Source: Ptychodera flava
Lineage: Eukaryota
Assembly (NCBI RefSeq): GCF_041260155.1
Contig: NW_027248355.1
Location: 2,580,078-2,644,077 of the forward strand
Length of the DNA: 64,000 nt
Direction of reading: 5' to 3'
Shown: one piece after another, positions 7,811 through 34,100 of the stretch
Numbering within the stretch: the stretch's first letter is position 1
Layout: the number at the start of each line of letters is the position of its first letter
Position numbers and translations under genes: made by a program
The notes under the pieces: model-generated
What the model was told of the DNA's origin: nothing
Database searches by the model: none
Seen by the model: only the letters and a program-made list of their open reading frames with translations

Positions 7811-8200
7811 TTAAACTCCTAAAATAAGGCTCTTTTTGTGGATTCGCCGCTCGCCAGTCAAGAGTAGTAACGCTACGCTAGATTAAGAAAAACAGCAAAA
7901 CATTTACTTTGTCGGTAACAGAAGATTTATTCATATGTTTAGAAGATGCAATATCTTAGTCAACTTTGAAAATTCGGAACTTCGCAGTTACCTGATGTGA
8001 TGAAATTCTCTACAATCTAAGGCGGAAAAATTGTAACTTGCATAAGTGTATATTCGTGCCGAATAGAGGTATCAAAATGAAACATTATTTTTCTTCCCGA
8101 TCAGCATAATTATTCTGGTACCTTCCATGTATAAAAGTATGAAGTATGTCTTTTTCATCATCATAGGGCACTGAGATGCTCATCTCAATTCTACATCTTT

Positions 8201-8235
8201 ATGTTCGACATCATCTTGGCGAATTCTGGAGAGTA
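8201..8235 (-). CDS. Calmodulin-like protein gene 1, terminal coding exon (E)FAKMMSNIKM*
   Basis: Acceptor tttcttgtttactctccag| at 8236. The junction codon G+AA gives Glu, restoring EF-hand position 12, followed by a calmodulin-like EFxxMM tail and a TAG at 8201-8203. The identical exon is conserved in gene 2. Confidence 0.55.
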
Positions 8236-8948
8236 AACAAGAAATATTGTACTGTGTTTCAACGCTTGAAATAAATATTCAATGGGCATGGCAGAAGATA
8301 ATTAAGGCCTCCCAGGCTCGGGAAATATTGGAATGAACCAGGACATGTTCAAAGTAGATGTTACACAAATATGTACGAGCGTGAACATTCAAAGATGTTT
8401 ACACCAGACTATTTTGTATAAAGGGTGTTGTTGGGAGAGATTTCTAACATGGGAAAATGCTTCTCTAAAGAGGTGAACTCTCTGATTGTAGCGCTATATA
8501 TCACGTGACATCATATACCAATCATTCTCTGTTTGCGGATATATATTACTCACGTAGGTGGCGACGCCACTCCAAGAAAATTACCCTTTTTTCAAGGGGA
8601 TAGGGTTCTCTGAATGTTTGGCTAGTACGTTTTGACGAAAGGGCAGCACAACTGCTACGCAAGAGTTTTCAAACAACGCATCCTGCAAACTGTACTCTTT
8701 GCTAAACAGTATACATGCATTCACACTGAGAGCTCTCGATTATAAATGTTTATCTTTTAGTTGTGTCTTTCTGAACAAATTATGTCTGTTTCATGATTAT
8801 CATCTTATATTAACTAAAGACAGTGAGCTTGCTAATCTCTTAGAAAACCTCGATAATATCATTTTATATTAAATTCATCCCTAAGGAAAGCACTGTCGTA
8901 TTAAACACATAGTTTAATTGTCAACAGAGTTAACAAAGCAGCACATAC

Positions 8949-9188
8949 CTTCCAATGTTACTTGTCCGTCTTTATCGATATCAGACCTGTTAATCATTTC
9001 TTGGACTTCTTCGTCCGTCATCTTAAAACCAAGTTCAGCCATTGCTTGGCTCATCTCGGAGGCGGTGATGAAACCGTTGCCGTCTTTGTCGAATACGTTG
9101 AAGACTTTGCGGTAGGCTTCGTCTTTGCAGCCACTAAAGCTAAGCGCAGCTCTGGTGAGAAACTCCGGGAATTCGACGGTCCCGCTGC
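8949..9188 (-). CDS. Calmodulin-like protein gene 1, coding exon with EF-hands 3-4 ([79 protein letters not shown])
   Basis: Acceptor ..ggcacag| at 9189 and donor GAAG|GTATGT at 8948. 240 nt, phase 1 at both ends. EF loops [12 protein letters not shown] and [12 protein letters not shown] are completed by the next exon. Confidence 0.65.
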
Positions 9189-10441
9189 CTGTGCCAATGA
9201 AACACAAGAATAATTCTTTTTAAACTCCATAAAATCATATTGAAATGCCAGATTTCCAAATTGACGAGATACTTTAATTGTCAATATTCATTGTAGTCTC
9301 AGACTGTTTGACGAATGGACGTGATTTTGAGTAGAATAGGAAGCTGTTTTTCACAGCGGAAGAGGAAAATGAAAATGTATCTATGTGCAACCCTCATCTT
9401 TATAAGGCAGCATTTCCGGCTTATCGAAGATGTCATGAAAGCCACCTATTACTAAAGTTTTCAAAAACCAGAGAATTTCGTGGGGTGGCAATAGTTTACT
9501 TGAAAAATGAAAGGGTACATACACGGGATGGAAAACCTCAATTTTGGTATAAATAATCAGAATTCAGTCAATATCTTGAAATTCAATGTATCATTTGAAA
9601 CTATACTATATATAGAATTAAGGTATTTTTGTTTCGCATCACCCACTCTCATCAAGACTTGGTTCAACTCTGTGATTTGTAAATGTTTGAGTAGGGTGAA
9701 TGCGATGATTTGTGTTTTGTTTTTATTTGAAACGCGTGATTGGGGTGATAGGAATCAGTCAAATAGGCAGAGACATATGCTAATACATATGTGGGGTGAA
9801 CGCTATACATGGGAGTTTCTCCCGGAATCGCGGTGAAACTGGCAGAAACTAACCCACTACTGCGCAGACTCAAAGGTAACGCGTTCAGTCGCTAGGAAAC
9901 ACTGGCCTGGGCTGCCAAAGTCCAATTAGGTTTGTATGAAATAGGAGAGACACAAGAGAAAAACTTGTACAGATGATTTTATTTTATAGAAATTCAACGA
10001 CTTGAACTTAGTCTAATGTCGCATCTTATATGACAGCGGTTGTAAAAATGTATTTTGGGATTTTCAAAATTTTATCTAGCCACCGTGGAATCCAATTTTA
10101 TTGAGATGTTGAAAAAGGAAGAAATAAGAAGCCAGGTGATTGGGTGATATACCTTAACTTATGTTTACACTTCTTTCTCAGTCAGCTTGCAACTGCTTGT
10201 CATGATAATATATGAACTTAACTTATATTTTAATCTTGGATTAACAAATTTATTAACACTTAACGAATCTTTGCAAAAAAGTGATTTCGTGCAAAATACG
10301 CTGTGTTGCGTTCGACGCCACCTTAAAGTTACAGTTAATGGCGATTATCAATTACAGTTTCTCTAAACAATGTGTATGTATAAAAGACGTTGGAGAACAT
10401 TTGCCAAAGTGATCCGACAACGTTCGTTGTCAAAAACTCAC

Positions 10442-10585
10442 CATCGGCATCCATATCGCCAATCATTGCCTTTATATCGTCTTCTGTCAAATCTGGTCCC
10501 ATATCCTTCAGTACAGCCCACATTTCTGTAACCGTGATTTTCCCATCCCCATCCTTGTCGTAGTGGGCGAACGATTTCTTGATAC
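10442..10585 (-). CDS. Calmodulin-like protein gene 1, coding exon with EF-hands 1-2 (..IKKSFAHYDKDGDGKITVTEMWAVLKDMGPDLTEDDIKAMIGDMDADG)
   Basis: Acceptor ttttatgtcag| at 10586 and donor GATG|GTGAGT at 10441. Canonical EF-hand loops DKDGDGKITVTE and DMDADGSGTVEF (the latter spans the junction). Phase is consistent with the next exon. Confidence 0.65.
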
Positions 10586-10631
10586 CTGACATAAAACATG
10601 TTTTGACAAATCAATAACGTAGCTATATAGA

Positions 10632-10636
<5 letters not shown>

Positions 10637-10694
<58 letters not shown>
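10637..10694. repeat. (CT)n microsatellite upstream of gene 1 exon 2
   Basis: Visible run of ct dinucleotides. Confidence 0.95.
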
Positions 10695-10695
<1 letters not shown>

Positions 10696-13149
10696 CATTT
10701 ACATCTCTCAAGTATAGCTATCCCTTTTCAATTAAAATGGACAATTGAATACCATCAACTTCTTTATATTTTATGTTTGTAAGTCATTTCCAGATGAACG
10801 GATGACGGAAATGTATTTGATTCAAATGTCAGAGGTCAAATATTCTTACTTGTCTGGTCATAAAATTTGTTCAGTATTTCACAATGGCTGTTAATTTGTT
10901 TATGAGTCATGAGTGACATGTTCAGCTTAATTATATATTGGATTCCGTGCCCAGTGTGAGGGCGTTAGGAATTTCCCTTATTCTCAAAGAACACTCAGCA
11001 TAACAATATCAAAGAACGTTGTTACAGTAGTAGTTAGAGATCGATCGTCATATGTTAGGAGTGACAACAAGGTGGAAAGAGATTCGCAGCTATGTCTTTT
11101 GCTGAAAAATAAATTGCAGCCTGATACACTTGCAAAGTAAACCCTTTTGAGCGTTAGGAAAAGGACGACTTTTTGGAGATTTAAAAGTAAGTACGGAAGC
11201 CATTCACATTCCGCAAATATTTGTCGAGCAAAAGTTCGAGGCAAACGATTGTGTCGGTATCCCAGGTGGCTACCGCCATCCTTGATTCAGCCTTAATGCA
11301 TGTGAATACGGTGATTTCTGAGAGTGAAGTTATCGATAACCTTAAGTGACACGACATTGACTGTAATGGTGAGTAGGCCTACTTACGTTCAACGTCTTCG
11401 TCGGCTAGTTTATCAGCCTACAAAAAAATTAAGAAGCGAATATTGTCAACGATCATGAGATCTTTGGGCGGGCGGTAAAGGGGCGGGTTTTCATTCTCTT
11501 TATCTCAACACAAATGGATTACCTTCACACAACTTTCAAAGCAGAACCATGGACTAACATCATGATGCCAATGCCATCAAGTTCTCATACGAGAACACAA
11601 GGGTTAAGGACCGCCGCAGGTTGAATTGCGTATACTCTCGATGGTCCATTATTGTATGAGATACACCGCTGTCCCCCTAATAATTTGAATAAAGTATAGC
11701 ATTTTCCAATGCGTAAATGATTAAGGCATGGAAAAGTACTCACCATCGTTTGCTTCTTCGTCGTTTCAAAACAACAAATAATCAAGTCCGCAAAGGCGGA
11801 AAAACCGGTAATGAGAAGTTAGGGAAGGACGTCCGACTGAAGTTTGTAAAGAGTGCACAAGCAAATTAGGGGCATATTTATGCACTGTATGAATAATTAC
11901 TTATTTTACGACCTGCTTTATTGTTAATTTCATTTGACAGAATAACAGAAATCCTAATGTGTCTATTCAATTTAATAAAATGTCGGAATTTGCATATCAA
12001 TTTGATGTTTCGTGAATTCCATTTGACACGTTAAAAGTAATCTGCGTCCATTGTCATAAAGTAAAGAACGGAATGTGCATGCCCATTCACAAACCCATTA
12101 TCCCTTTCTAAAATAAAAACTGGAATGACAACCATGTTATTTATTTCATGTCGAGTAAGTACAGGGTCAGATAACTACAAAAATGAATATTGATGTTGGG
12201 TAGCTGTAACCTGGAACCGTCGGAACGCCGACCAAGGCAATGCACATGGAACGACAAATGGTTGAGGTCTTTCACTTTCGAGACGCATACTACCTTAAAG
12301 GAGCGGGCATGATATCAGCTTTATCTCTACACTAACTGATTAACAAGGCACAAATTTCAATATAGAAGATAGGATAATTTGTCTATGTCAACAAACACTG
12401 ATGCAAAAACCATGGATTGAGGACCGCCGCTTTCATGACCGTTACTGTAACGTACGCTGTCCAAAAGTCGGTGTTATCCCGTTCTGACACACATACAGAA
12501 AATAACGCAGAGCATGATGTACACAAACTGATGACAGATGTGAGTGATCGTAAAGGATTTAGATACAAAAATAAATTGTTGATTGGTTTGTACACGTAAC
12601 ATGATCATAGGCCAGGGACGTTAATTAACGGCGTCACCAAAAGTCAAAACAAGACTCGTCAGTTAATGCCACCAGATTTTAAAATGTAGATTTAGATGAG
12701 GAATATTTGCCTCGACATTCTGACAATATGTTATCTGAGATTGATCAATACTGTTTCCCTTCTCCTGAACACATACTTTTCACTGACACAAAACTACTTA
12801 TAACACGATTGAAACTAATTTGGGATGATTGAATGGTGAAGTAACGTCAATATAATTTGTAAGTGAAACCTCATCTGCTTTTCTTTTTTAGTTTGATAGA
12901 CACCTGTTTCTATGAGTAATTTGTATGTATTTGTTATGTATTTATGGCATTCATATGTAAATTACCTTGTATTTGTAATTCGTTGACGATTGTTGTGAAA
13001 ATAGCATCGCTCTCAAATAGCGCAAGACTGTATTTCTATAGCAATAATTAGGGCGATTTCCTTCACTAAGAAGATGGCTGTGAACTTTGGGCTTTAGCGT
13101 GTATGCATAGTTATTGTAAAATAAACACAGCATAAGTATATGTCCAAAT

Positions 13150-13960: not shown

Positions 13961-14479
13961 AGAAGGTTGTATTTTGACAAAATTCTCGTAATATCAGGAA
14001 TAAATCTTAGAGAGTTTAGTATCGCCCTCATTAACACATGTGTCTAGGCCACCATAGAAACGAGACATGTTCCTCCTCGCTGTCTTCGGCAGATGTTGTA
14101 CCAACTATCGGAGTTAAACAATTTAACTATTTTTATCTGCCAGTCTTCTAGTTGATATTGATGGTAGAAGTGGCATTGTTAATGACGTTAACACTGGCCC
14201 CGGATGATAGTGATAACAATTGCAAATACAATGACTATGAGGCTGCTGCTGCTGCTGATGATGATGATGATCATGATCATGGTGACAACGTTGATGAAAA
14301 CGATGATTTCTGTGATGAAATTGACCGCAGTGCTTGCATTTCTGTTTTGTACATGAGAACAGAATGAGTACTGGTGGCACTCTCTATGTAAATACTTATT
14401 AAAATAAATTTCATGGAGACGGACAAGTAAGATTTTCATCCCATATTTGCATAACGAATATTTGCATAACGAATATAAA

Positions 14480-15170
14480 TTTTCGAAATACAAATGTTGT
14501 CATTACCTCGGGATCGTTTTGGTATTTTTTGTAAGCAAGCCCCCAAAAAATTAAATTTATAAGGTATGTCTCTTTCCTAGACCCTAAAACGTTTCAGTGC
14601 CTCTGCGTACGCACTCATAGTAATCCTGCTGGTATTTGCAAAGTAGTCAGGCTTGGTTGGATCACCAGTTGTAAGGTACAAGTTCTGATATTTCTCCGAA
14701 GACATCAACTCGTACGCCGAACGTAAGACAGCTTTTGTTTGTTCTTTATCCGACAACATGTCCTCTATGGTCACCATTTTATAATCTGCAGATCTGTTCA
14801 TACAAGTAGCTTAAGCTGATATCAGCCTGCTACACGGACAATATCGATAGAAAGCAGTCGGGCCCAATCTCCGCGCAGAGATTGGAGCGAGGCGAGGACA
14901 ATCATAACCTAGCTAGGGAGTTTGAACGATGGCCGTACCCGCCCAGTAAATGACCCGGTGACTCTCTCTGGCTAGGTTAGAATTATCCACGCCAATACAA
15001 TCTGTGTGTAGAGATTGCAGTGGGCCTCTGAAAAATTGCAATTCGAAAGAGCCTCGGATTCTTCTTTCAGGAAGGTGCTCGTTGGAACTGTGGTTATGAG
15101 ACTTCTTTGTTCGCAAACAATGTAAATGGTACGTCAACGTGGCTGCAACATTTAAACTTTGTGATGTACA
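14480..15170. repeat. Copy b (part 1) of the dispersed duplication (paralog of 1-700)
   Basis: See the 1-700 feature. Confidence 0.8.
14508..14801 (-). pseudogene. Paralogous copy of the 49-342 exon carrying a frameshift in an A/T run (stop after ...EALKRFRV); the donor GAG|GTAATG is retained
   Basis: Alignment with copy a shows mostly nonsynonymous differences plus a frame disruption near 14560. Confidence 0.4.
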
Positions 15171-16026
15171 CAATGGCAAATGACAAGCATGTCTTTTAAC
15201 CTTCATTAATCATGAACGTACCTTGGATACAGTGTTTACATTAGTCGTGTGGGTCCCATACTACCTTTGAGCGCAGTTCAGACAATTCCATTCCTTCAAA
15301 TAGAGAGATTGTGATTTCTTTTTAGGTTCGTTTTATTGCTCGACTCTCTGATGTCCATTGTTTGCACTTTTTAGCCAAAGATACATTTAAAATGTATACA
15401 TTTATTGGTCATTTCATTCATTGGTGTGACTATACAGTGCAATTTTTCCCACGTAACTGGTTTTTAGATTTTGTTTTTTTATGCTTGTTTCACTACTTTT
15501 TTTCCCCAAATAAAACAATGATATCAAGCGAAGAATAAGAAGCATAAGCAATACTGTTTGGACATGAAAAAATGTTAAAATCATTAACAAAGATGATTTT
15601 TGATTCTGCAATATGTCAATCAAGGGCTCTTCAGTCCTGGCGTATGTTTGTAAATTCCAGACTTTTACTTTTCCCCCATAGAGCTATTTACAAAGAGATG
15701 GCGGCCATTTTGAATTCCATATATTGGTAAAAGATGGGTTGTGTTTGTTTTTCTGGTACAAATTTGCCTGATGACACCTGATTTTTATTGTTCTTGATTT
15801 CAAAAGGGAGAGGTTTTAAGTTTCCTCACAGAAAGTTTGAACAAAATTTAAAGGCATGTACATCAAACCCCACTTATCGACAACGGCGGTTGAGTAAACC
15901 TTGCAAGCCCCCTCTACCCCCTCCCCCATCTACTACCCCCACAATTTTCGAACCCCTGAATTCCGCCACCCCCTGACTGTGTTTTCTGAACGCAGCTTTA
16001 ATAAGAAATGTCTTTGTTTTTGACAG

Positions 16027-16027
16027 G

Positions 16028-16065
<38 letters not shown>
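16027..16065. repeat. (GATA)n microsatellite; a second block at 17485-17530 flanks the TIR element
   Basis: Visible gatagata runs on both sides of the element. Confidence 0.95.
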
Positions 16066-17484
16066 CAGAGTTCGCGTTTACGCAAAAATCGTGCGTATTT
16101 ACGCATTGAAATTGACTCTCTACGCATTTTTTCATCGTTATGCGTTTTCTATACGCAAAGGATAACACCGAAAGCACTCCCCACGACTGAGCTTAGGCGA
16201 CATCCAGACGAAATTTGTGGCAACACATTTCTGTCAATCACTCATGTTGTGTGGAAAGTTTCGGATTCTCTGGGCGTTGTCTGAAAAATCGGCATCGTAG
16301 TCCACACGTTATCACGTTAGGCATGTTATCATGTCAGCTGTGCCTATGAATTACGTTGCTAATTTTCAGGCGAGCGATAGTTTCTGAAAGTGAGTGATTG
16401 ACAGAAATGTTGCGACAAATTATATAAATGCCGACCGTGCACGATCATCGCGTCTCGCTATTCCCAAATTTTGATCAAGCACACATGCAGCATGGCGTCG
16501 AAGCAGACAAATCTGTTTTCTTTCAACTTTGCTCTACGAGTCCGTGAAAAAAATGATTCATCGGTAGAGCTCGTCGGAATCCCGATAAATTTTGAACACT
16601 GCAGAAGTGTCTGGATGGTAACTGGTCGTTCAGGCACCAAGTTGTTTCGGCCCAAGTCGTTTCGGCCTCTCAATTTCCGGCCAAAGTCACTTCGGCACTG
16701 CAACCCAAGACGTTTCGGCATCTGTTTTTCGATTTTTTTTTTCAAACTATTCAGTAATTGACTGATCCGTCATATTTGTAAGCGTGACCTTTGCGTTCTG
16801 ACCAGTCCTTTATGTGCATTTTGTGTGAATTTTGCCGTGCTGTTTCGTCACCGCTTTCAAACTTTTGCCGTGTAGGCGGCTATTGATATCGATAAACTTG
16901 TGTCACAGATTTGAAAATGATATGAAGTTTTTTCTTACGGTCTCTTCCCATGTTCTCACAAAGATTAAGCATGTACGTGAATGTTAGTTGACACTATACT
17001 TTTTAGTACTTTGATTTGTAACATTACGCTCCAGCACTAGTTCCCACAGGTAGCCTTCAGCGGTGCCGAAACGTCTTGGGTTGCGGTGCCGAAACGTCGG
17101 ACTTGGGGCCTGAAATTCAAAGGCCGAAACGTCTTGGGCCGAAACGACTTGGTGCCGAAACGTCCAGACACCGTCTAGATAAGCTGCCATAACTCTAACT
17201 TTTGGGTTGCCCAATGTGTTTTGACGGTCGCATGTATAACCTTCACTGTTACGTTTCAACATTGTTCAAGTTGTTCGTTAAACTGTTTTCATTAAAATAA
17301 TGTTACATCGTACAATCCGAATATGTAGTGTAGGTTTATTCAACGGCACATTGTATTTTGCAGTCAGTTTTTTCATCAATCGAGTGCGGAAGTGAAATTA
17401 CGCACTCAAATCCAGCCATTACGCAATTTTAGCAGACTAATGCGTATGCCGTACGCGAGGAGAAAAAAGTCACCGCGAACACTG
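16066..17484. mobile_element. Non-autonomous hAT-like TIR DNA transposon (~1.42 kb) inserted in the (GATA)n repeat; terminal inverted repeats CAGAGTTCGCG / CGCGAACACTG
   Basis: 11-bp TIRs (10/11) with CAGNG-type termini. Subterminal TACGCA/TGCGTA repeats occur at both ends. A large internal inverted repeat (16610-16745 vs 17045-17175, ..ggcaccaagttgtttcggcccaagtcgtttcgg.. / ..ccgaaacgacttggtgccgaaacg..) is present, and there is no long ORF. The element is absent from the paralogous copy a (680-1330). Confidence 0.6.
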
Positions 17485-17494
17485 TAGATAGATG

Positions 17495-17540
<46 letters not shown>

Positions 17541-17544
17541 CCGT

Positions 17545-19505: not shown

Positions 19506-19540
19506 CTACGGCTTTATGTTCGACATCATCTTGGCGAATT
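19506..19540 (-). CDS. Calmodulin-like protein gene 2, terminal exon (E)FAKMMSNIKP*
   Basis: Acceptor ..tttcttgtttactccccag| at 19541. The sequence is conserved with the gene 1 terminal exon, with stop TAG at 19506-19508. Confidence 0.55.
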
Positions 19541-21544: not shown

Positions 21545-21682
<138 letters not shown>

Positions 21683-23461: not shown

Positions 23462-24877
23462 ACTCCCCCCGCCTAGACCTGTGCATGTCCTCATGCACAA
23501 TGGTTGTTAAAGAAGATCTTGTCATTTTCCCTTACTGATCCAACCGCAAGGCTATCAAGAGTATTTAACCCTCCTGTCGTGTCAAAAATTAAATCTGAAG
23601 AATATGTCTTGTCAATAACGTTACAGAACATAACTGTGGATACCACATACTTCTGTAGGTAGAGAGCTCGTAGTCCAGTCAGTCGACATTGTCATTCAAT
23701 AAAAAACAGCCATATCACAATGGAAATGCAAACACAAGGAGTACCCCCTTGAACTGAAATAAGAGTTATCATTGGTCTTTGCATGTCTTTTAATCAATGA
23801 TTACTTGCTACCCTAAGCATTCAAGGAGAAAGTAAATTAAGCATTTGCTGCATGGGCGTTATCCGGCAACACTTTTGACTTGCGTCTGGGTCCGCTTGAC
23901 ATAGCCTTTCCCTATGCCGTATACAACCCGACAACAATCACTAAAACCTTAGCCCACTGCAAACCCACAGCTCAAAACAATTAATTTTCTAATGTAATCT
24001 GTCCCCATTATTTTTTTTTCTTTTTTAAATTTTTTTTCATTTTTTTTATGTTTGTTTTCGTTAATTTTCATTAAGGGTATAATTCACTGTCAATCAATAT
24101 TTGTCGATTGTCGGGAAGAAAAATGATAAACGATGATCTCTCATCAACTAGTCACGGTGATCCCATACCACTACTTTTGGAATCACGTGACTGTGTGAAA
24201 CTGTGAACTATACTGAATATACATGTGTGGCTATATAACTTGCACACCACCAATGGAGCTCTCGTTTGTCAACCCTCTCCATGCTTGTTTTACGGCCCTT
24301 GACAGTCTACTAAAACCATAGTGATCCACTGCTTTTCTGTTTCTTCTTGGGTACCTATTGCTACTGTTTAGCTCCTCAGACTTGTAATCATTAAGGTTAT
24401 GAGGATTTTCCATGGGCATTTCATTATCACATTTTTGACCAACTTCCTTATCACCTTGCAGATTATTAAAACTTTTTCCTTTATCTATATCATTTGTACT
24501 CTTATTTTCATTATGGTCATTTTTCAGGTCGTTCCCTTCTAATTTACCAGTATCAGTCGGAATATCTGACCCAAGGTTGCCGTCAATTGACTGATCATTT
24601 ACGTAATCCAAGACATCATCAAATTTATCCTCAATCAAAGGTTTGAAAACCTGACTTTCACTATCTTCTCCTGCTTTAGCATGAGCAGCATTTTTAGGTT
24701 TGCCAACCTGTATACGCTCGTCCACGGGTATAGATTTCACTCTGTCCAACCAAGGATCCAGAGCTTTCCCCTAATACCGTTTCAATTTTTCTTGATGTAC
24801 TATCTTAGCTTTCCTTCTTGGGCTGAGTTGTATCCGTACACAAGGTCAGACACTTTACCGATGACCAGATACGGCCC

Positions 24878-27094
24878 CTAATAGGCCAACTGTAATTTGG
24901 GAGCATAGCCTTTCCTCCTCCTCTCATCTTTTAACCAAACGAATTCTCCCACCTTATAGTTATAAGTAGTCGCAAAACGATCGTACAGACGTTTCTGTTG
25001 GCGAGCAGTGACTTTCAATTGCTCTCTTGCATGTGCATGTGCTTGTTCTAATTTATCCCTTAAATTGGCCACATACTCAGAGCTAACCTCCCCTTCAGGT
25101 ATGTCTACAGGTACCAATGCCATATCCAATGGGTAGTGCAACTCTCTCCCTAACATCATCATGTTAGGAGTTTCTCCTGTAGATGGGTGTACACTACTGC
25201 GGTATGCAAAGGTGGCTAAACTGATGTTCTCGTCCCAGTCAGTTTGGTGTTGCAAGGGGTCCATATAAGCTCTAATATAGCGTACAACTGTGTGGTTAAA
25301 ACGCTCCACCTGCCCGTCACTCTGCAGGTGGCGTGGCGTGGTAAATGTCTTGTTAACCCCAAGCAAATCACACACTTCTTTGAATACATTGGAAACGAAG
25401 TTCCGGCCAAGGTCACTGTGACATTCGAGAGGCATACCAAACCGACTGAGAAAGTTGCCAAGCAACACCTTTGCAACCGTAGGAGCCTCCTCATTGGGAA
25501 TGGGGTAAGCTTCCATCCACTTGGTGAAGTAATCACCAAGTACCAAAATCTTTTTATTACCCCTGCTACTCTCGGGAAAGGGTCCCACTACATCAATTGC
25601 TATACGTTCAAGGGGTGCTCCGACAACGTAGGTCTTTAGTGGCGCCCTCCTTTTCCCTGTGATTAGTTTATTTTTAGCACATACATCACATTTTCGAATA
25701 TGACTCCGCACGTCCACAGACATCCCAAACCAAAAGTACTTGAGCCTGATTTTCGCGAGGGTTCGGCCAATACCTGCATGGCCTCCAAACTTGCTATCAT
25801 GAAATGTCTCTAACACAAGGGGTATGAAGGCCTTTGGCAAGATGATCTGCCACCTTACCATTCTTCCGTCAGCTGCTTCCCAAAGCTTATATAGTATTCC
25901 ATTATGTACCCTGAGTTGGGAGTATTGGGACCAATAGGTTTTGAGGGCTGGTGATCTATGGGAAATGTCCTCCCACGCTGGTCGAGTTTCACCACTCTCC
26001 ACCATCCTCATTATCAAACCTATATTTGAGTCTTCCAATTGTTGCTCCCTTAACTCAGCCATTGACCACAATACCTCATGCTCAATGTTTCTTTCGCTAT
26101 CTAAGCTAAGTTCCGCCTCCTGTTGCTCGGGCTGAGCAACAGGGGACTTCGTGGTTACCTTATGTACATCACACCTATGTGGATGGAGGCGTCCCTCCAT
26201 CCTAGGCCACCCATCAATCGAGTGATTGGGATTTTTCTCCACCTTGGAAGACTTTTTGCTGTTCTCAGCAATCTTGGCAGTAGAAGAGTCTTGCTGTGCT
26301 GTTTCGCATGACTCAAACTCTGACCGATTAGTTACCCTTGCGTTAATGTGTGTGTCTTTGTGATGCTCTCTACCACATTGCTTACAGTACTCGACTGGTA
26401 CACGACTCAGAGCATCTGCATTCAGATGCTTCTTACCAGGCCTATGTTCTATCTTAAATTTGTACTGACCTAAAAGTTCTATCCAGCGGGCTAATTGCCC
26501 CTCAGGGTTCTTAAACCGCAATAACCAGACCAACGAGGCATGATCTGTCCGAATTGTAAACTCTCTACCGAGCAAGTAGTGTCTAAAATATTTCACGTAT
26601 TCCACATCCGCTAACAGTTCTTTTCGTGTTACGCAATAATTTCTTTCGGTTTTACCTAGGACCTTGCTCGCATAACAGATGGGTCGTTCTACCCCCTCAT
26701 GCATTTGACTCAGTACAGCACCTATACCGACTTTGCTAGCATCCGTATCTAGGATGAAATCTCCTTCTGCAGACGGGAAGGCCAATACTGGCGAGGTTGT
26801 TAATATTTGCTTGAGTCGATCAAAAGCGTCTTGGCATTCAGATGACCAGATAAAATGAGCATTTTTCTTGGTCAGCTCATTGAGTGGTTTTGCTATAGAA
26901 GCAAAGTCTTTTATGAACCGTCTGTAGTAAGATGCCAATCCGTAAAAACTGCGCACCTCTGATACGGTGGTTGGCACCGGCCAGTTGCAAATAGATGCAA
27001 TTTTCTTGGGGTCAATGGAAACGCCCTCTTTTGAAAATCTGTGGCCCAAAAACTCGACCTGCTCGGCAAAAAGCACACATTTCTTTGCTTTCAA
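24878..27094 (-). CDS. pol segment: RT thumb, RNase H (..YASKVLGKTERNYCVTRKELLA..) and integrase (HHCC finger H..H..CDVCAKNK, then DDE core ..LGDYFTKW..SDLGRNF..QSDGQVER)
   Basis: 738-aa ORF with these motifs. The integrase C-terminus (GPYLVIGK..) continues in another frame, and a further 172-aa ORF lies at 24231-24749. Confidence 0.85.
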   Translation of the reverse strand: MKAKKCVLFAEQVEFLGHRFSKEGVSIDPKKIASICNWPVPTTVSEVRSFYGLASYYRRFIKDFASIAKPLNELTKKNAHFIWSSECQDAFDRLKQILTTSPVLAFPSAEGDFILDTDASKVGIGAVLSQMHEGVERPICYASKVLGKTERNYCVTRKELLADVEYVKYFRHYLLGREFTIRTDHASLVWLLRFKNPEGQLARWIELLGQYKFKIEHRPGKKHLNADALSRVPVEYCKQCGREHHKDTHINARVTNRSEFESCETAQQDSSTAKIAENSKKSSKVEKNPNHSIDGWPRMEGRLHPHRCDVHKVTTKSPVAQPEQQEAELSLDSERNIEHEVLWSMAELREQQLEDSNIGLIMRMVESGETRPAWEDISHRSPALKTYWSQYSQLRVHNGILYKLWEAADGRMVRWQIILPKAFIPLVLETFHDSKFGGHAGIGRTLAKIRLKYFWFGMSVDVRSHIRKCDVCAKNKLITGKRRAPLKTYVVGAPLERIAIDVVGPFPESSRGNKKILVLGDYFTKWMEAYPIPNEEAPTVAKVLLGNFLSRFGMPLECHSDLGRNFVSNVFKEVCDLLGVNKTFTTPRHLQSDGQVERFNHTVVRYIRAYMDPLQHQTDWDENISLATFAYRSSVHPSTGETPNMMMLGRELHYPLDMALVPVDIPEGEVSSEYVANLRDKLEQAHAHAREQLKVTARQQKRLYDRFATTYNYKVGEFVWLKDERRRKGYAPKLQLAY

Positions 27095-27300
27095 TTACAA
27101 CCCAGCTCCCTTCAGTTTATCAAACACCAACTGCAGTCGGTTTAGCTCTTCCTCAAATGAACTAGCAAAAGCAATCAAGTCATCCAGATACAATAAACAA
27201 ATTTCCCATTACAAATCGTAAAATACCTTCTCCATTAATTTTTGAAATGTGCCGATACCCATGGGCATAACTGTCCATTTCAGAAGTCTACCAGATGGCG

Positions 27301-28653
27301 TCATGATTGCCATTTCTTTCTGCTTGCCTCATCCAGAGCAACCTGATAAAAGCCGCTACAAAGGTCAAGGCAACTGAAAAAGCGTGCTCCACCCAGACTT
27401 TCCAAATTGTCTTGTATACGGGGCAAAGGATAAGCGTTTACAAGGGTTACTGCATTCAGACGACGGAAATCACAAACCAGACGAAATGAGGAATCTTTCT
27501 TAGCTACAAGTAGACATGGGCTGCTCCATGGGGAATCACTTTCTACCAACAGCCCCTTGTCAACAAATGTTTGTATCTGCTTATCAATCTCTGCTTTCTT
27601 CCAAAATGGAGCACGATATGGAAGTGATTTTATGGGTTTCTCAGTTGTCGTCGGGATATGATGTTCCACTACATGTGTCTTCCCCAAATCTGTCGGGTCT
27701 TTGCTGAAGACATCAGCATTCTTAACCAACAAATCAAATACTGACTGCCTTTGTTTATCTGAAGTTAAGTGTTGGACACTGCATTCATATAGATCCCTTT
27801 GATAGTCAGGCATTATGCCACTTTGGCCAGCAGTTATTTTATTGACTGACGGAGGTATTGTGTGCTCACTATGTTTACCCAAAGCAGGGGAGGACTCGAT
27901 ATCAAAATTAACAGTTTTGTCCATTCTTAACAAACCCAAACACTGTCCTTTTTTAACCTCGATGTCTTGGTTACTGAGATTTATAACCCGCACGGCGTGT
28001 AATTTACTTCCCACTTGACTGAGGGACCCTGCCCCCATTAGTCCTACTTTATTCAACTGCACTGGTGTCACCAAAGCTGTTATTTCCGAGAAGTTATTCT
28101 CGATATCATAACCTAACGTACCACCTGATTTTTCACTTTTACAAAACTGTCGACCCCCATACAAGTTGTAACCAAATTCAGCGACGCGAGGGGTTCTACT
28201 CATACGAGACATGATAATGGCTTCATGCCCGGCCGGAACAGATTCAGCCCAGTTTGCTTGCAACCGACAACAGAAAGGTTTTACATCTTCGTGAACAGTT
28301 TCCACAAGTTTGTTTCCTACCATTACTGTACCGTTTTGGAGGTCTAAACAACAATCAAATTCCCTTAAAAGATTCATACCCAGAATGCCCGCAGATCCAT
28401 TCAAAGATTCGGCTATTAAGATGGGTACGACACCTTGCCTGCCCCCTATTTCTGCTTTGATTAAAGCTTCACCCCATAGAGATACCCTGGACCCGTCCAC
28501 CTGTATTAAACATGTACCAGAATCTGTCACCTGAGGGCGTTCATTCTTTGGAATAAGTTCGAAAAAATCTTTAGATATTACGCTGTGTGTTGAACCAGTG
28601 TCGACAAGACACTTTTGTGTTACTCCCTGAAAAGTGACATCAACCAGTAACAT
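27301..28653 (-). CDS. pol segment: aspartic protease (LVDTGSTHSVIS) and the N-terminal part of RT (..FFSCLDLCSGFYQVALDE..)
   Basis: Both the DTGS motif and the RT motif of gypsy-type RTs are present. The frame breaks at ~27300, and the following ~200 nt (YLDD region) contain two in-frame TAA codons. Confidence 0.8.
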   Translation of the reverse strand: MLLVDVTFQGVTQKCLVDTGSTHSVISKDFFELIPKNERPQVTDSGTCLIQVDGSRVSLWGEALIKAEIGGRQGVVPILIAESLNGSAGILGMNLLREFDCCLDLQNGTVMVGNKLVETVHEDVKPFCCRLQANWAESVPAGHEAIIMSRMSRTPRVAEFGYNLYGGRQFCKSEKSGGTLGYDIENNFSEITALVTPVQLNKVGLMGAGSLSQVGSKLHAVRVINLSNQDIEVKKGQCLGLLRMDKTVNFDIESSPALGKHSEHTIPPSVNKITAGQSGIMPDYQRDLYECSVQHLTSDKQRQSVFDLLVKNADVFSKDPTDLGKTHVVEHHIPTTTEKPIKSLPYRAPFWKKAEIDKQIQTFVDKGLLVESDSPWSSPCLLVAKKDSSFRLVCDFRRLNAVTLVNAYPLPRIQDNLESLGGARFFSCLDLCSGFYQVALDEASRKKWQS

Positions 28654-28994
28654 GCTTATAGACTGTTCATTATTACCAAGATGTGAATGACCCAGTGCGA
28701 CTACAGGTTCGTGACCTTTGACTGGAGAACTGTCTCCAGGTTCAGACGAAAAATGCGTAGTATCAGCGGTGACAATTTCTGTTTGAGAAGAAGAGTTCTT
28801 TGTTACGGTATTAGTTTTCGGGAAAAGAGGTGTAGCACTGTATTGCTTGGGCTGTCGGCTTTTACCGACTTTCTTACTTTTACTTTCAGCAGGTACAGTG
28901 ATATGAGGTTTTATGACAGAATTAGAACTGTTCGTCGGTTTCTTACTAGCTCGATCTATTCCGGCCCTTTCTACAGTTTTACTGTGTGACTGTT

Positions 28995-30361
28995 TTATTC
29001 GGGTTGGAAGCCGGCCGGCTCTCCCAACCCTTTGGAGTTTGACGACTGCCCTTTCACATCAGACTGACTGGCTTTGTATTGAGGACATTGAACTTTTCGA
29101 TGTCCTTCAACTCCACAAATCCAGCATACAAGTTTCTTTCGGTTTCCCGATTTTGCTGACTGTGCAGCTTCTAACCGTTCCAAACGATCGAGTATTTGTA
29201 ATAACACGTCATCAGTAACTTTCGCTTGCACTTTACGTTCAACATCATCACCGACACTTGTGGCCCGAATGTTAGCAGACTTTCCTTTACCTTGACAAAA
29301 TTTCTGGAAACTTTCCTCGCATTGCGCTTCATGAACAACACTTTCTAGGGTAGCATCTTTTTTTCTACCCGCTTCACTTATTTTATGTTGAATAGCTACA
29401 TCTTTCACAGCCATCATCAAGCTATCAATACAGAGGCGATCCAGACATTCACCAGTAGCACTCGGATATGCTTTGATCATCATTTCTCTAATTTCCTGGG
29501 CCAAATCTTGTAATGACTGATCTTTCTTTCGCACAATAGTTTTGACCTGCAGACGGAAATCATATCATCTGCAAACCCACTAAGTGAGAACCGTTTTAGA
29601 AGCAACTTACATAAACCGTCATAGGTATCTATGTCTTGCCCACAATGAGCTGCAAATTGTAAAGCACGGCCCCTCAGTTTAGTCAACAACATGTTGTACC
29701 GTTGTTCTGAATTCCAATGATTGACTTTCGCACAAATATCAAAGTGAACCCGATAATTGGCAAAGTCTGATTCGCCAGTAAAGTTATCTACCTTGGCACT
29801 GTCTTTGCCAGCCGTAGGAAAGCTTTGCCCAGGAGAGCACATGTCTGGACTGTCGCGTGTAGCAACAATAGGAGTCATGTCCGCTCCCCTTGTCTGGCAA
29901 CTCTCGTTGCTACGCAATAAACTTCTCCCTCTACCGATAGGCAAATATTCTCTCCTTGCGTCTCTCACGCCAAGACGGTAATAAGGGCTAGCGAGGCTAG
30001 ATTTAGCGGGAGTAGCACCCACGTCTCCTGCTTCACCCTGACCGCACGGAGAAACACTTTTCTGAACCGTAGACGTGAAATTGCCGCTGCGATTAGTAGA
30101 CGCCGTGTTGAAACCACTGTCAACACTATGCATATCACCCCCAAGGGAGAATGGAATAGCCTGCTCTGTGTGCTGTACACGAGGCTTGATGACTACTCCA
30201 TCAGGTGACATAAGAGGCGACAAATCTTTGTCTCCCTCAGTCTTTCGTTCGGAACGAATATTAGTCAACTGAGTTTGATTCGCATTTGATGCCAGTAATT
30301 CCATTTTACCTGCGGGCTGACCGCGAGGAAATGAAATCTCACTGTCCACAAAACTTTCCAT
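28995..30361 (-). CDS. gag region in two overlapping frames (29480-30361 and 28995-29534), with a CCHC zinc knuckle CWICGVEGHRKVQC
   Basis: ORFs MESFVDSE... and ...CWICGVEGHRKVQCPQ overlap by 55 nt in different frames, which points to a frameshift. Confidence 0.7.
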
Positions 30362-30557
30362 CTCAGTAAAAGACTATTAAGAACACCTGCGAACACAGCT
30401 CTGAAAAGTACAACAATAGAACTATTGTTTGATCATAAAAAGTTGCAAACTTGATACCAACACGATATACAATGTATTATCGATTTTTCGAACACGAACA
30501 CGAGCAGAAATCAACGCCAATGACCCAATTTTATATCCCGCAAAAGCTGCCACCAGT

Positions 30558-31147
30558 TGTAACGAAATCCTCTTAATTACCAGAATACGTGAGGACAATA
30601 CTCTCAGAAATCTGTAGTGTGGTAACGTGAACGGGCTTCTGAATGACGTCCGGCACTGAGGTGTTCGACTTGTGCGTGGACAGAACACGCACGTATAAAA
30701 CTGGGTCTAGAGAGGCGACTGAACGCACGCCTTGACTCAGGCGAAACCAACAACAAAAAGAGAACCTGAGAAAACTAACTTGGTATACCTGTAAATCTGG
30801 CACCTCAGCCTCACGGAGGCTTACTAAGAGTAGCAAGAAGTATGATTTAACGCAAAATAGAAGGAAATAGAGGTAGCCAAGAGGTTAGATCAGGAGAGCA
30901 CAGACATGCACTGCTCACTGCAGGACGGCTACCTCCAGAGTGTCCCAGCCGGAGGATGGGTTGCCTATGGTTACCATGGACATGTGACTAAAACCCCGCC
31001 CCTAATTTGGTGACTGACATACACGGGAACGCCCCATCTGAAAATCAGGGATATTGCCTATTTTCTCAACCACCTGCAAATTCAAAGTAGGGACCCATCC
31101 GCACCAACGGGCTCCAAGGGCGATTTTGTGTCCAGTATTTCATGACA
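30558..31147 (-). repeat. 5' LTR of the gypsy element
   Basis: Aligns with 22846-23461 (about 6 substitutions; LTR1 carries an extra 28-bp insertion). Confidence 0.9.
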
Positions 31148-34100
31148 ATATGGTCAACAGCTCCCAGGAGCCGAATGATATAATCCACTGACACCTTACG
31201 ATGCCGTGAAAGAGAAAAACGAACGTATAAAAGAATACAGGTTGAATCTGAGGTTGACGTTAAAAACTGTCTCTTCAATTATTTGAGTACAGCATGGCTC
31301 TTTCCAATGTTCAAGGGATTGAAAAATACTCACCATCGTTTACTTCTTTCTCGTTTCTAAGGCGGCAGAACGGAACAAGAAAAACTAGGGATTGACGCCC
31401 GACTAAAGTTTGTGAAGAGTGCACCTCAACGAGTGGACTAGCAAGCACATTAGGGGCACATTTATGCATTTCATGAACAATTACTTATTTTTTACTACCA
31501 GCTTTTTTGTTAATTCCATTTGACAGAATAACAGGAATCTTTATGTGTCCATTGTCTTCAATACAATGTCGGAATTTGCATCTCCATTTGATGTTTCACG
31601 AACTCCATTTGACACGTCCCGTTAAAAGTAATCTTCGTCCATTGTCATAAAGTAAAGATCGGAATGTACATGCCCATTCACAATCTCATTATCCCATTCT
31701 AGCGTTCATTAATGTTACAAAGAAAATGATCTTTTACACAGAAAACAATATACCGGTAATTTCAAAAGGCTATCGTAAGATCGATATGTGGAGTGTATGG
31801 TCATTAACACTATGAAGTCTTTTGTTCTCACTGGAAATTTCAAACACCTGATGGGTAAATCTGATTTTCTAGTGACACTGCGACTTTCTGGACTGTTCAT
31901 TAGTTTCTTTCGACCGTTTCTTAATCATTGATTATTTTTTACCGTCCTGGTGCTGTGTGCACTTGGCACAGCTGCTAAAACCATGCAAACTTATATGTGA
32001 GAAATAATGACAAATAATTCTCAATATTTGGCAGAAAGAAATGATGCTGCCTTAATAGGTTGAAAAACTTAATGCGTCGCTGCTTTTGAGATGGAAAATT
32101 GACAATGATTCCATAATGGCTTTGAGCTTTACTTCAAAGTTTTGTATGGATTGGTATTGATATATATTATTACGATAATTACTTTTTCCTTGCAAGTAGA
32201 AATAAGAATGTGTGATTAACAGTGTTTTTCTTGATTCGGAAGGCCTGTCATCCATGCAGAGTCTGTTGATGAACCAAATGAGTTGTTGATAAAACTTAAT
32301 CAATTGCGTCTTGGAACGATAATCAATAAAATTAAAAGTTAATATGATCCAACAACAAACAGATTATTTGAAATATGGAAGAAAAAATTCATGTACGATC
32401 GATGACTTTCTCGTAATTCAAACTCTGTTAATGAGTACGTCATCGGCTAACAATAGGCCTCGTCATGACATACAGAAAGCAACAACAATTTTCTTGATAA
32501 GAACAAATAAAACTGGAATGGCAACCTTGTTATTTATTTCATGTTGTGTAACCTGTTCAGGGTCAGATAACTACAATAATGAATATTGATGTTGGGTAGC
32601 TGTGACCTGGAACCATCGATCGCCGACCTTGGCAATGCACTTGGAACGACATATGGTTTTAATGCACGTTTTAACCTGAGTAAATGACATTCTTACCAGC
32701 CAGGTCTATACATTTATTTAGTTAGCTGAAGAACGATTATTGGCTTTGCGTCAAAATAATTTAACTTTGGCAAGGAAATCATTATGTTGTCATCTTTTTA
32801 AATAAACATGTTAATGTATTGCTTACATTTGCATCCTGTTCATATATCAGAGTTAAAATTCACTTACGTTCATCTAGGTATGCCTCACAAAACACTAGAA
32901 GCAGTATGAGCACATATCTAGTCCAATAGCATTGTTTAGTTTTCAAGACAAGAGGAAAACCCTCCATAGGCCAAAAGTGCCACCCCATTTTCTTTTACAA
33001 TACACTTTCTGATTCACCACAATAAGCATCCCTTATTTTCCGAATAACCACGTTAAAATGATATTACTTTTGATAAATTTGGAAAAAAAACATCTCAAAT
33101 AATCTATTATATTGTATAATGAGAGGAAAGTATAAAATAGAAGACGTCGGTTTAATGAAAGTAATCAAAGATATATGTATTTAATTCTCTGAGCACGTAA
33201 GAGCAAAACACATATTGTGGGAGTTTATGAATGAAACCTAAAATTGCTGGATTCTAATTCCACCACAATTACAATAGCTGCTCGTGAATATTCAATAGAT
33301 TGCTTATTGTATACCGTGACAATGCATTCTTTGGAGTGAATCTAATTAAAACCATTTTTCGGTTATGGATTTATAATCGCTTTCTGCACTATTGCTTGAT
33401 CAAAGCAAATCACGAACGTAATGTATAGTGGTTTTTTAGTATCATTTTTGCCAAGCACAGATCTATAAATCTTCATTATCTAAATGTCTACATTGGCACA
33501 TATATGTGATAGTCACATTCCAAACGTTTGGCAATAACGTGGAGTATTTTGTGTGTGTTTTCAAATGATCCCAACATTGCATAGATTGTCTACTGAACAT
33601 GTGTAGAAACCAGTAAAATAAACAAATTTGCTGAGACAAGCGTTATTAAGGAAAAGTGTCTAAAATATTGGTTTCAACGAATTTTTACGCAAACGAGACA
33701 TCAAACTGCTGTAAACAATGACATTATCTGAAAACATTTTTCTCCTCACTATATTTATTTTTTGTCGAATCTGTGTAACGACAAAGTCTATGAATAATTC
33801 ATAAACTTACTATTTAAAACATCTTATATCAAGCTACAACAAAACCCTGTTTACTCCACTTCACAAGAGAAAGTCAATGTTAAACTGTTGTCTTAGCTTT
33901 TACAATCAAAACAGTAAAATGTATTGAAATACGGTCACTTCGTAAGTCGTATCTCGCTTAAATTGTTGTCTCCACCACAAAACCGGAAAGCCAAGAAGTT
34001 GCATTGATCATTTTCAAATTCGGAGTGGTTAATGTGTGCCAATTTGACATTCTCGCCAACCATGGTTTTTCGTGGTACATCTATAAGCTATTCTCTCCGT

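What the first reader, a model, noticed from the sequence alone, without database searches (positions are those of the whole stretch)
7870..32650. Tandemly duplicated calmodulin-like gene unit, with a young gypsy element inserted in one copy and the empty site preserved in the other
Two ~4.4 kb units each carry a 4-EF-hand gene with identical exon structure (exons of 144, 240 and 35 nt with the same phases). Unit B is split by the 8.3 kb LTR element, between positions homologous to ~11600 and ~11620 of unit A. This gives an internal before/after comparison for the insertion and its 4-bp ATAT duplication, and it dates the duplication as older than the retrotransposition. LTR identity is ~99%, while the units are ~85-90% identical.
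Basis: seen in the sequence. Interest (0 to 1): 0.6.

Follow-up and report, generated by a model that had tools for sequence, protein, structure and literature searches.

The report
Duplicated calmodulin-like genes, one with retrotransposon
Two old tandem copies of a calmodulin-like gene in the acorn worm Ptychodera flava, one carrying a recent but defective Ty3/gypsy retrotransposon in its first intron: a real but ordinary piece of animal genome structure, and the other copy does not keep a clean "empty site".

Summary
Unit A (7878-12263) and unit B (19176-22845 + 31152-32658) are collinear direct repeats. Each carries an intact 150-aa, four-EF-hand gene on the minus strand. Gene B's protein is 100% identical to RefSeq XP_070549527.1, "calmodulin-2-like [Ptychodera flava]". 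An 8,302-bp Ty3/gypsy element (22846-31147) splits unit B. It has TG..CA LTRs of 616 and 590 nt (582 matches, 6 mismatches, 2 indels) and a 4-bp ATAT target-site duplication.

Corrections:
- The genes have five coding exons (ATG only, 31, 144, 240, 35 nt), the usual invertebrate calmodulin layout.
- The element lies in intron 1 of gene B, in the same orientation as the gene.
- Its pol is broken by frameshifts and stop codons.
- The units are about 83% identical in well-aligned non-coding sequence and 80% in CDS, not 85-90%.
- The duplication is larger than 4.4 kb: 1-2680 also matches 14459-18339.

The "empty site preserved" claim fails at nucleotide level. The element sits in 573 bp of B-specific sequence. 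Unit A has an unrelated 106 bp there (11563-11668), with no ATAT and no similarity beyond shuffled controls. The order of events holds: unit divergence is about 19 times LTR divergence. This is ordinary biology of low interest.

The parts
7878..12263 (-). It contains calmodulin-like gene A plus its 5' and 3' flanks.
   Evidence: BLASTN self-comparison; MAFFT alignment to unit B with the element removed.
11744..11746 (-). Gene A coding exon 1. It holds only the ATG, followed by the donor GTGAGT. The extent of the 5'UTR is unknown.
   Evidence: AAACGATG|GTGAGTA is conserved at homologous positions in A and B. It is the only strong ATG|GT site upstream of exon 2. Invertebrate CaM genes also have an ATG-only first coding exon (PMC6171432).
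11387..11417 (-). Gene A exon 2 (31 nt), encoding ADKLADEDVE plus 1 nt.
   Evidence: Acceptor tttttttgtAG and donor GTAAGT. It is homologous to the B exon that encodes residues 2-11 of XP_070549527.1.
10442..10585 (-). Gene A exon 3 (144 nt), EF-hands 1-2.
   Evidence: Pfam EF-hand_7 and EF-hand_1.
8949..9188 (-). Gene A exon 4 (240 nt), the end of EF-hand 2 through EF-hand 4.
8191..8225 (-). Gene A exon 5 coding part (35 nt), encoding (E)FAKMMSNIKM and the stop.
   Evidence: polypyrimidine tract plus AG acceptor, conserved with B..
11563..11668 (.). A 106-bp stretch of gene A intron 1 that brackets the position equivalent to the insertion. It is not alignable to the flanks of the element in B.
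19176..22845 (-). Unit B, left part: gene B exons 2-5, the 3' flank and the proximal part of intron 1.
19506..19540 (-). Gene B exon 5 coding part (35 nt).
20244..20483 (-). Gene B exon 4 (240 nt).
21364..21507 (-). Gene B exon 3 (144 nt).
22211..22241 (-). Gene B exon 2 (31 nt), encoding ADKLPKPYLK plus 1 nt.
   Evidence: tblastn with the N-terminus of P0001.
22387..22845 (.). B-specific intron-1 sequence (459 bp) directly left of the element. It ends in the ATAT target-site duplication at 22842-22845.
   Evidence: No counterpart in unit A or elsewhere in the window.
22846..31147 (-). Ty3/gypsy LTR retrotransposon, 8,302 bp, in the same orientation as gene B and inside its intron 1.
   Evidence: LTR pair; ORFs and domain order on the minus strand.
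22846..23461 (-). 3' LTR of the element (616 nt), TG..CA. It carries a 28-bp indel relative to the other LTR. The polypurine tract AGGCGGGGGGAG lies just inside, at about 23463-23474.
30558..31147 (-). 5' LTR of the element (590 nt), TG..CA. A primer-binding-site-like TGGTGGCAGC lies 2 nt inside, at about 30546-30555.
24234..30373 (-). gag (zinc knuckle) and pol (protease, RT, RNase H, integrase) coding region. It is interrupted by frameshifts and stop codons.
   Evidence: Frame map; Pfam; RT region read in three frames; tblastn of the intact homologues P0020 and P0025, showing frame changes near 27313/27286 and 24836 and 3-4 in-frame stops.
31148..32658 (-). Unit B, right part: the second ATAT copy (31148-31151), 114 bp of B-specific sequence, the distal end of intron 1, exon 1 and the upstream region. 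It includes an 803-bp B-specific segment at 31702-32504.
31334..31336 (-). Gene B coding exon 1 (ATG only, donor GTGAGT).
   Evidence: With this exon the spliced product equals XP_070549527.1 exactly. Any ATG-terminated exon would give the same protein, so the placement is inferred.
1..2680 (.). Left extension of duplication copy 1. It matches 14459-18339 in three collinear blocks.
   Evidence: BLASTN 1-607~14459-15063 (86.6%), 1339-1773~17550-17985 (89.2%) and 2364-2680~18006-18339 (79.4%); tblastx.
14459..18339 (.). Left extension of duplication copy 2.

Best explanation
The window is Ptychodera flava genomic DNA carrying an old tandem segmental duplication. The copies span at least 12 kb (1-12263) and at least 18 kb (14459-32658).

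Each copy contains a calmodulin-like gene on the minus strand. The layout is the ancestral invertebrate calmodulin one, with five coding exons: ATG only, 31, 144, 240 and 35 nt. Both paralogues keep intact 150-aa reading frames with four canonical Ca2+-binding loops. They have diverged strongly: 66% amino-acid and 80% CDS nucleotide identity, dN/dS about 0.5-0.7.

Much later, a Ty3/gypsy LTR retrotransposon integrated into intron 1 of the second gene, in the sense orientation. It lies 186 nt below the exon-1 donor and 604 nt above the exon-2 acceptor. The integration duplicated ATAT and lengthened the intron from about 0.8 kb to 9.1 kb. The copy now has about 1% LTR divergence and a pol with several frameshifts and stops, so it cannot move on its own.

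The intron-1 segment that received the element is itself B-specific. Either B gained it through an earlier insertion or A lost it through a deletion. Unit A therefore does not preserve the pre-insertion site.

Shown: the repeat structure, the LTRs and target-site duplication, the domain order, exons 2-5, and the identity of gene B to the RefSeq protein.

Inferred: the position of exon 1 and hence the intronic location, the relative ages, and the origin of the duplication by unequal exchange or replication error.
For: - Collinear direct repeats with E values down to 0.
- LTR alignment, TG..CA ends and ATAT on both sides.
- A PBS-like and a PPT-like motif on the minus strand.
- PR, RVT_1, RT_RNaseH, Integrase_H2C2 and rve domains in that order.
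- 41-48% identity to thousands of metazoan Ty3/gypsy Pol proteins.
- Frame breaks and stops relative to intact homologues.
- Gene models with GT/AG at every junction; the gene B product is identical to XP_070549527.1.
- EF-hand Pfam hits of 1e-30 to 1e-35.
- ATG|GTGAGTA conserved in both copies at homologous positions.
- Invertebrate CaM genes have five exons, and the first encodes only the start codon (PMC6171432).
- Divergence: JC 0.194 for well-aligned non-coding columns against JC 0.0103 for the LTRs.
- No LTR-like sequence in unit A.
Against: - Exon 1 is placed by conservation and splice consensus only. No transcript data were available, and the RefSeq model's coordinates could not be retrieved.
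- Gene A's protein is absent from the protein collection, so its expression is unknown.
- LTR identity can be inflated by LTR-LTR gene conversion, and paralogue identity by inter-copy conversion. The age ratio is therefore approximate.
- The number of disabling lesions in pol looks somewhat high for about 0.5% divergence per lineage. This is my own rough estimate. The copy may already have been defective when it inserted.
Confidence: 0.85

Rival explanations
1. One reading: unit A preserves the exact pre-insertion (empty) site, with a single ATAT and continuity. The locus would then give a nucleotide-level before/after comparison.
For: At unit scale the flanks of the element are collinear with A. 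A global alignment places ACTCTC...ATGGTC of A (11634-11646) opposite the joined B flanks.
Against: - That 6+6-nt match needs a 5-nt gap and sits in otherwise unalignable sequence.
- The local alignment of A 11563-11668 against the 573 bp of B flanks scores no better than shuffles, and the junction-centred score is below the shuffle mean.
- There is no ATAT in the A interval.
- B has 459 + 114 bp next to the element with no counterpart in A.
Confidence: 0.05
2. The element lies upstream of gene B, in its promoter region, rather than inside intron 1. The true first exon of gene B would be between the element and exon 2, or inside the proximal LTR. An LTR-driven first exon is one such case.
For: Other ATG|GT sites exist on the minus strand at 22399 (GCAATG|GTTATT), 22880 and 23291, the last two within the LTR. 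Any ATG-terminated exon would give the same RefSeq protein.
Against: These sites have weak donor contexts and no counterpart in unit A. ATG|GTGAGTA at 31336 is a consensus donor conserved with A 11746, within an 86-93% identical upstream block.
Confidence: 0.08
3. The two units are an assembly artefact: two haplotypes of one locus placed in tandem, one allele with the gypsy insertion and one without.
For: Heterozygous marine invertebrate genomes are prone to false duplications (general knowledge). One copy carries the element and the other does not.
Against: - Divergence is far above allelic levels: 17-25% non-coding difference and 34% amino-acid difference.
- There are many large copy-specific indels of 5.2 kb, 2.5 kb, 0.8 kb and 0.57 kb.
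- If these were alleles, the empty site would align, and it does not.
Confidence: 0.02

Closest known systems
Invertebrate calmodulin and calmodulin-like gene families. Examples: RefSeq XP_070549527.1 calmodulin-2-like of Ptychodera flava; the five-exon CaM genes of abalone and sea squirt described in PMC6171432.
   Same: - About 150 aa with four EF-hands in two pairs.
- Five coding exons, the first encoding only ATG.
- No intron inside the fourth exon.
- The 31- and 144-nt exons equal those I recall for human CALM genes (from memory).
- Gene B is the annotated RefSeq protein itself.
   Different: - Only about 40-54% identical to vertebrate calmodulin, so these are calmodulin-like proteins, not canonical calmodulin.
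- 150 aa rather than 149.
- The paralogues evolve quickly (dN/dS 0.5-0.7), whereas canonical calmodulin is nearly invariant.
- Paralogue A is not in the protein collection searched.
Ty3/gypsy (Metaviridae) LTR retrotransposons of metazoans. Hits carry names such as 'transposon 412' and 'Ty3-I Gag-Pol'.
   Same: - Direct LTRs with TG..CA ends.
- A 4-bp target-site duplication in an alternating AT sequence. Drosophila gypsy also makes 4-bp duplications at TATA/ATAT-like sites (from memory).
- PBS-like and PPT-like motifs.
- A gag zinc knuckle and PR-RT-RH-INT order.
- 41-48% Pol identity to thousands of animal elements.
   Different: - This copy is defective, with frameshifts and stop codons in gag and pol.
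- No near-identical relative was found in the protein collection, so recent activity of the family could not be assessed.
- The tRNA that matches the PBS was not identified.
Paralogous empty-site / filled-site comparisons, used to validate TE insertions in segmental duplications.
   Same: One duplicate carries the TE and the other lacks it. This orders the events: duplication first, insertion later.
   Different: The unfilled paralogue does not align across the junction. The surrounding 573 bp are specific to the filled copy, so the site cannot serve as a nucleotide-level empty site.

Membership tests
Ty3/gypsy LTR retrotransposon | Two long terminal repeats in direct orientation with TG...CA termini | tested here: met
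   22846-23461 and 30558-31147. Both read TGTAACG...CATGACA. 582 matches and 6 mismatches.
Ty3/gypsy LTR retrotransposon | Short target-site duplication (4-6 bp) directly flanking the LTRs | tested here: met
   ATAT at 22842-22845 and 31148-31151. Chance expectation about 0.005.
Ty3/gypsy LTR retrotransposon | Primer-binding site next to the 5' LTR and polypurine tract next to the 3' LTR | tested here: inconclusive
   On the minus strand, CA|AC TGGTGGCAGC follows the 5' LTR and AGGCGGGGGGAG-T precedes the 3' LTR. The matching tRNA was not identified, and there are no tRNA genes in the window.
Ty3/gypsy LTR retrotransposon | pol domain order protease - RT - RNase H - integrase. Integrase comes last, unlike Ty1/copia. 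| tested here: met
   Pfam Asp_protease_2 and RVT_1 in 29058-27304, then RT_RNaseH, Integrase_H2C2 and rve in 27094-24881. Collinear with the intact homologues P0020 and P0025.
Ty3/gypsy LTR retrotransposon | Uninterrupted gag and pol reading frames (an autonomous copy) | tested here: not met
   gag is split between two frames. pol has frame changes near 27313/27286 and 24836 and 3-4 in-frame stops. This does not bear on family membership, only on autonomy.
Calmodulin (canonical) | Near-invariant 149-aa sequence, more than 90% identical across animals | tested here: not met
   tblastn of vertebrate calmodulin gives 52-54% identity over the C-terminal exon and 38-43% over the N-terminal exon. 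The proteins are 150 aa.
Calmodulin-like EF-hand proteins | Four EF-hand motifs in two pairs within about 150 aa, with canonical 12-residue loops | tested here: met
   Pfam EF-hand_7 (two stretches), 1e-35 and 3e-32; EF-hand_1, 3-4 stretches. By inspection, the loops [60 protein letters not shown] and [24 protein letters not shown] are all canonical.
Calmodulin-like EF-hand proteins | Calmodulin-type gene structure: first coding exon is ATG only, with shared intron positions | tested here: met
   Exons of 3, 31, 144, 240 and 35 nt, all with GT/AG. This matches the five-exon invertebrate CaM layout in PMC6171432. The position of exon 1 is inferred.
Calmodulin-like EF-hand proteins | Ca2+ binding and target regulation | not testable with these tools
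   Needs biochemistry.
Tandem segmental duplication | Adjacent, same-orientation, collinear copies with similarity far above chance | tested here: met
   Eight collinear BLASTN blocks, E from 1e-32 to 0. The global alignment has 2,948 matching columns.
Empty-site / filled-site pair | The unfilled copy aligns continuously across the insertion point and has one copy of the target sequence | tested here: not met
   Homology is interrupted: A 11563-11668 against 573 bp in B. There is no similarity above shuffles and no ATAT.

The most novel reading that the evidence does not exclude
The sense-oriented gypsy copy in intron 1 may have changed how paralogue B is expressed. Its LTRs could act as an alternative promoter or as a premature terminator, or it could change intron-1 regulatory content. 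That would contribute to regulatory divergence between the two calmodulin-like paralogues. One curious point: the TE-bearing copy is the one with a RefSeq protein, while the TE-free copy A is absent from the protein collection searched.
Probability: 0.1. Interest if true: 0.3.

Novelty: new member of a known kind. Interest (0 to 1): 0.1.

Why it matters
It matters little beyond annotation.
- It gives a second, apparently intact calmodulin-like paralogue next to an annotated P. flava gene.
- It gives a well-delimited, dated Ty3/gypsy insertion in an intron.
- It gives a rough relative timescale, with the duplication about 19 times older than the insertion.
- It does not provide the clean internal before/after insertion comparison that made the finding attractive.

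Tried and rejected
1. My first gene model used a 7-nt first exon, ATGGTGA. I dropped it when the RefSeq homologue showed the N-terminus MADKLPKPYLKY. That sequence maps to a 31-nt exon at 22241-22211. The ATG at 31336/11746 is followed directly by GTGAGT, so exon 1 is ATG only.

2. I looked for a nucleotide-level empty site in unit A by global and local alignment with shuffles and by word-7 BLASTN of the B-specific flanks against the whole window. Nothing was found.

3. I looked for terminal repeats or a target-site duplication that would mark the 803-bp B-specific segment (31702-32504) as a mobile element. The result was inconclusive.

4. I noted an ACGTTAA at both edges of the 573-bp B-specific intron segment. 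It cannot be read as a target-site duplication, because A has 106 unrelated bp there rather than an empty site.

5. I tried to fetch the RefSeq locus of P0001 to see the annotated exon 1. It is not on record.

6. I looked up gene A's protein. It is not in the collection.

7. I searched for homologues of the duplicated ORF at 19-342 (Pfam; protein search). None were found, so I make no claim that it is a gene.

8. I searched for near-identical Pol proteins as a sign of recent family activity. The best hit is only 48% identical.

9. Literature searches for P. flava calmodulin-like duplicates or LTR dynamics found nothing specific.

10. I considered a haplotype-duplication artefact and rejected it on divergence.
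Full report
**Source and overall picture.**
The window is eukaryotic, at about 38% G+C. Splicing the second EF-hand gene from the window gives a protein identical over all 150 residues to XP_070549527.1, "calmodulin-2-like [Ptychodera flava]". The DNA is therefore from the hemichordate Ptychodera flava.

**The repeat.**
A BLASTN self-comparison shows collinear direct matches between unit A and unit B:
- 7878-9571 ~ 19176-20867 (79%)
- 10027-10693 ~ 20945-21614 (83%)
- 10634-11160 ~ 21617-22145 (81%)
- 11314-11562 ~ 22145-22386 (77%)
- 11858-12110 ~ 31442-31701 (86%)
- 12111-12263 ~ 32505-32658 (88%)

E values run from 1e-32 to 0. The jump in offset between the fourth and fifth blocks is caused by an LTR element. 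A global alignment with that element removed has 2,948 matching and 959 mismatching columns (75.5%). Well-aligned non-coding columns are 82.9% identical, JC distance 0.194.

The duplication is also larger than the 4.4-kb units:
- 1-607 ~ 14459-15063 (87%)
- 1339-1773 ~ 17550-17985 (89%)
- 2364-2680 ~ 18006-18339 (79%)

These blocks continue the collinearity to the left. The copies therefore span at least 1-12263 and 14459-32658, and copy 1 runs off the window edge. Copy-specific indels are large. Copy 1 has 5.2 kb at 2681-7877. Copy 2 has about 2.5 kb at 15064-17549, 803 bp at 31702-32504, and the LTR element.

**The genes.**
Both EF-hand genes are on the minus strand, and they are the only two in the window.

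Two more coding exons exist. A 31-nt exon lies at A 11417-11387 and B 22241-22211. It was found because the RefSeq protein begins MADKLPKPYLKY. The first coding exon holds only the ATG. The best candidate is AAACGATG|GTGAGTA, conserved at homologous positions (A 11746-11744, B 31336-31334). No other ATG|GT site upstream has a comparable donor or is shared by both copies.

The result is ATG | 31 | 144 | 240 | 35 nt, 150 aa, with GT/AG at every junction. [quoted passage not shown]

The two proteins:
- share 99 of 150 residues, and 362 of 453 CDS nucleotides;
- have dN 0.205 and dS 0.38 by NG86, a ratio of 0.54, or 0.73 by LWL85;
- keep four canonical EF-hand loops by inspection, and hit the EF-hand Pfam families at 1e-30 to 1e-35.

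They are only about 40-54% identical to vertebrate calmodulin, so they are calmodulin-like rather than calmodulin. Gene A's exact product is not in the protein collection. The first search, with an A-derived query, also found nothing closer than gene B. Gene A may be unannotated, and I could not test its expression.

**The LTR element.**
The LTRs are 22846-23461 (616 nt) and 30558-31147 (590 nt). Both begin TGTAACG and end CATGACA. They align with 582 matches, 6 mismatches and two indels of 28 and 2 bp. That is 98.98% identity, JC 0.0103. ATAT flanks the element on both sides (22842-22845 and 31148-31151). The chance of this in the local composition is about 0.005.

The element is on the minus strand. 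A PBS-like TGGTGGCAGC lies 2 nt inside the 30558 LTR. A polypurine run AGGCGGGGGGAG abuts the 23461 LTR. The minus-strand frames encode:
- a gag with a CCHC knuckle;
- an aspartic protease;
- RVT_1;
- RT_RNaseH;
- Integrase_H2C2 and rve, in that order.

This is the Ty3/gypsy arrangement. The RNase H-integrase frame is 41-48% identical to thousands of metazoan Ty3/gypsy Pol proteins.

The copy is not intact. gag is split between two frames. The RT domain has a frame change near 27313/27286 and two in-frame stops around the YLDD motif. There is a further stop at 24881 and a frame change at about 24836, all relative to the intact homologues P0020 and P0025. "Young" is fair on LTR identity, but the copy is defective. 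Whether it was already defective when it inserted cannot be decided here.

**Where the element sits.**
With the exon-1 assignment above, intron 1 is 326 nt in gene A and 9,092 nt in gene B, or 786 nt without the element and one ATAT. The element lies 186 nt from the exon-1 donor and 604 nt from the exon-2 acceptor. It has the same orientation as the gene. This placement is inferred. The alternative, an exon 1 between the element and exon 2 or inside the LTR, rests on weak, non-conserved ATG|GT sites. I give it under 10%.

**The empty-site claim.**
This was the core of the finding's interest, and it does not hold. Alignable sequence ends at A 11562 / B 22386 and resumes at A 11669 / B 31266. 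In between:
- A has 106 bp;
- B has 459 bp to the left of the element and 114 bp to the right.

The best local alignment between these scores 10, against 9.8 +/- 1.3 for 500 shuffles, and 240 shuffles reach that score. The junction-centred comparison scores below the shuffle mean. The B-specific flanks match nothing else in the window. The A interval contains no ATAT.

The element therefore landed in a stretch of intron 1 that has no counterpart in A. The cause is either an earlier insertion in B or a deletion or replacement in A. I cannot distinguish these without the rest of the genome or an outgroup.

**Order and relative timing.**
The element is present in only one copy, and A holds no solo LTR or LTR-like sequence. 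Unit divergence (JC about 0.19 in well-aligned non-coding sequence, 0.30 over all aligned columns) is 19-29 times LTR divergence (0.0103). Duplication before insertion is well supported. The ratio is approximate, because gene conversion can lower either figure. Absolute ages would need a hemichordate mutation rate, which I do not have.

**Artefact check.**
A haplotype mis-assembly is excluded. Non-coding difference is 17-25%, amino-acid difference is 34%, and there are several kilobase-scale copy-specific indels.

**Verdict.**
This is a correctly spotted, real and statistically solid structure. It consists of ordinary components: a tandem duplicate of a calmodulin-like gene, and an intronic Ty3/gypsy insertion with a 4-bp target-site duplication. 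The one feature that would have made it a neat natural experiment is absent. Interest is low.

Noticed in passing
window 2758-4113 (+) and 6759-7814 (-): Two arrays of a ~351-bp repeat (about 3.9 and 3 copies, 76-82% identical) lie in inverted orientation around a 2.6-kb core at 4114-6758. Together they make up most of a 5.2-kb segment (2681-7877) present in duplication copy 1 and absent from copy 2. The layout resembles a foldback-type element with tandem-repeat arms.
   Followed up: partly
window 10634-10700 and 21555-21690: A (GA)n microsatellite, followed in copy B by (GACA)n, lies about 50 nt upstream of the 144-nt exon's acceptor in intron 2 of both paralogues. It predates the duplication and has persisted through about 20% divergence. 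Similar (GA)n runs occur at about 13150-13210, 50840-50889 and 57388-57445.
   Followed up: no
window 19-342 (-) and 14520-14954 (-): A 107-aa ORF (MNRSADYKMVTIEDILSDKEQ...) in the left extension of copy 1 is about 81% identical at protein level to copy 2. Copy 2 has an in-frame stop, and its reading frame is no longer comparable beyond it. It has no Pfam family and no homologue in the 5.8-billion-protein collection.
   Followed up: yes
window 22872-22899: The 28-bp indel that distinguishes the two LTRs is bounded by a short direct repeat (AAATAC), which suggests slippage. On the gene strand it contains an ATG|GTAT.
   Followed up: no
window 12029-12110 vs 31620-31701: This is the best-conserved block between the two units, at 93% over 82 nt. 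It lies about 280-360 nt upstream of the start codons, and is a candidate shared promoter or 5'UTR element of the two paralogues.
   Followed up: no
window 62228-63607 (+): An uninterrupted 459-aa ORF with an integrase core domain (Pfam rva_4, 5.8e-28). It is probably a transposon-derived gene or an intact mobile-element ORF.
   Followed up: partly
window 58444-59315: A minisatellite of about 18 copies of a 48-bp unit, 90-94% identical between shifted copies. It gives long spurious ORFs on both strands.
   Followed up: no
window 50958-51317 (-): An ORF fragment with an FkbM-type methyltransferase domain (Pfam Methyltransf_21, 8e-6), presumably an exon of a neighbouring gene.
   Followed up: no
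window 13481-13960 (-): A 159-aa ORF in the spacer between the end of copy 1 and the start of copy 2. It has no Pfam match, and its origin is unknown.
   Followed up: partly
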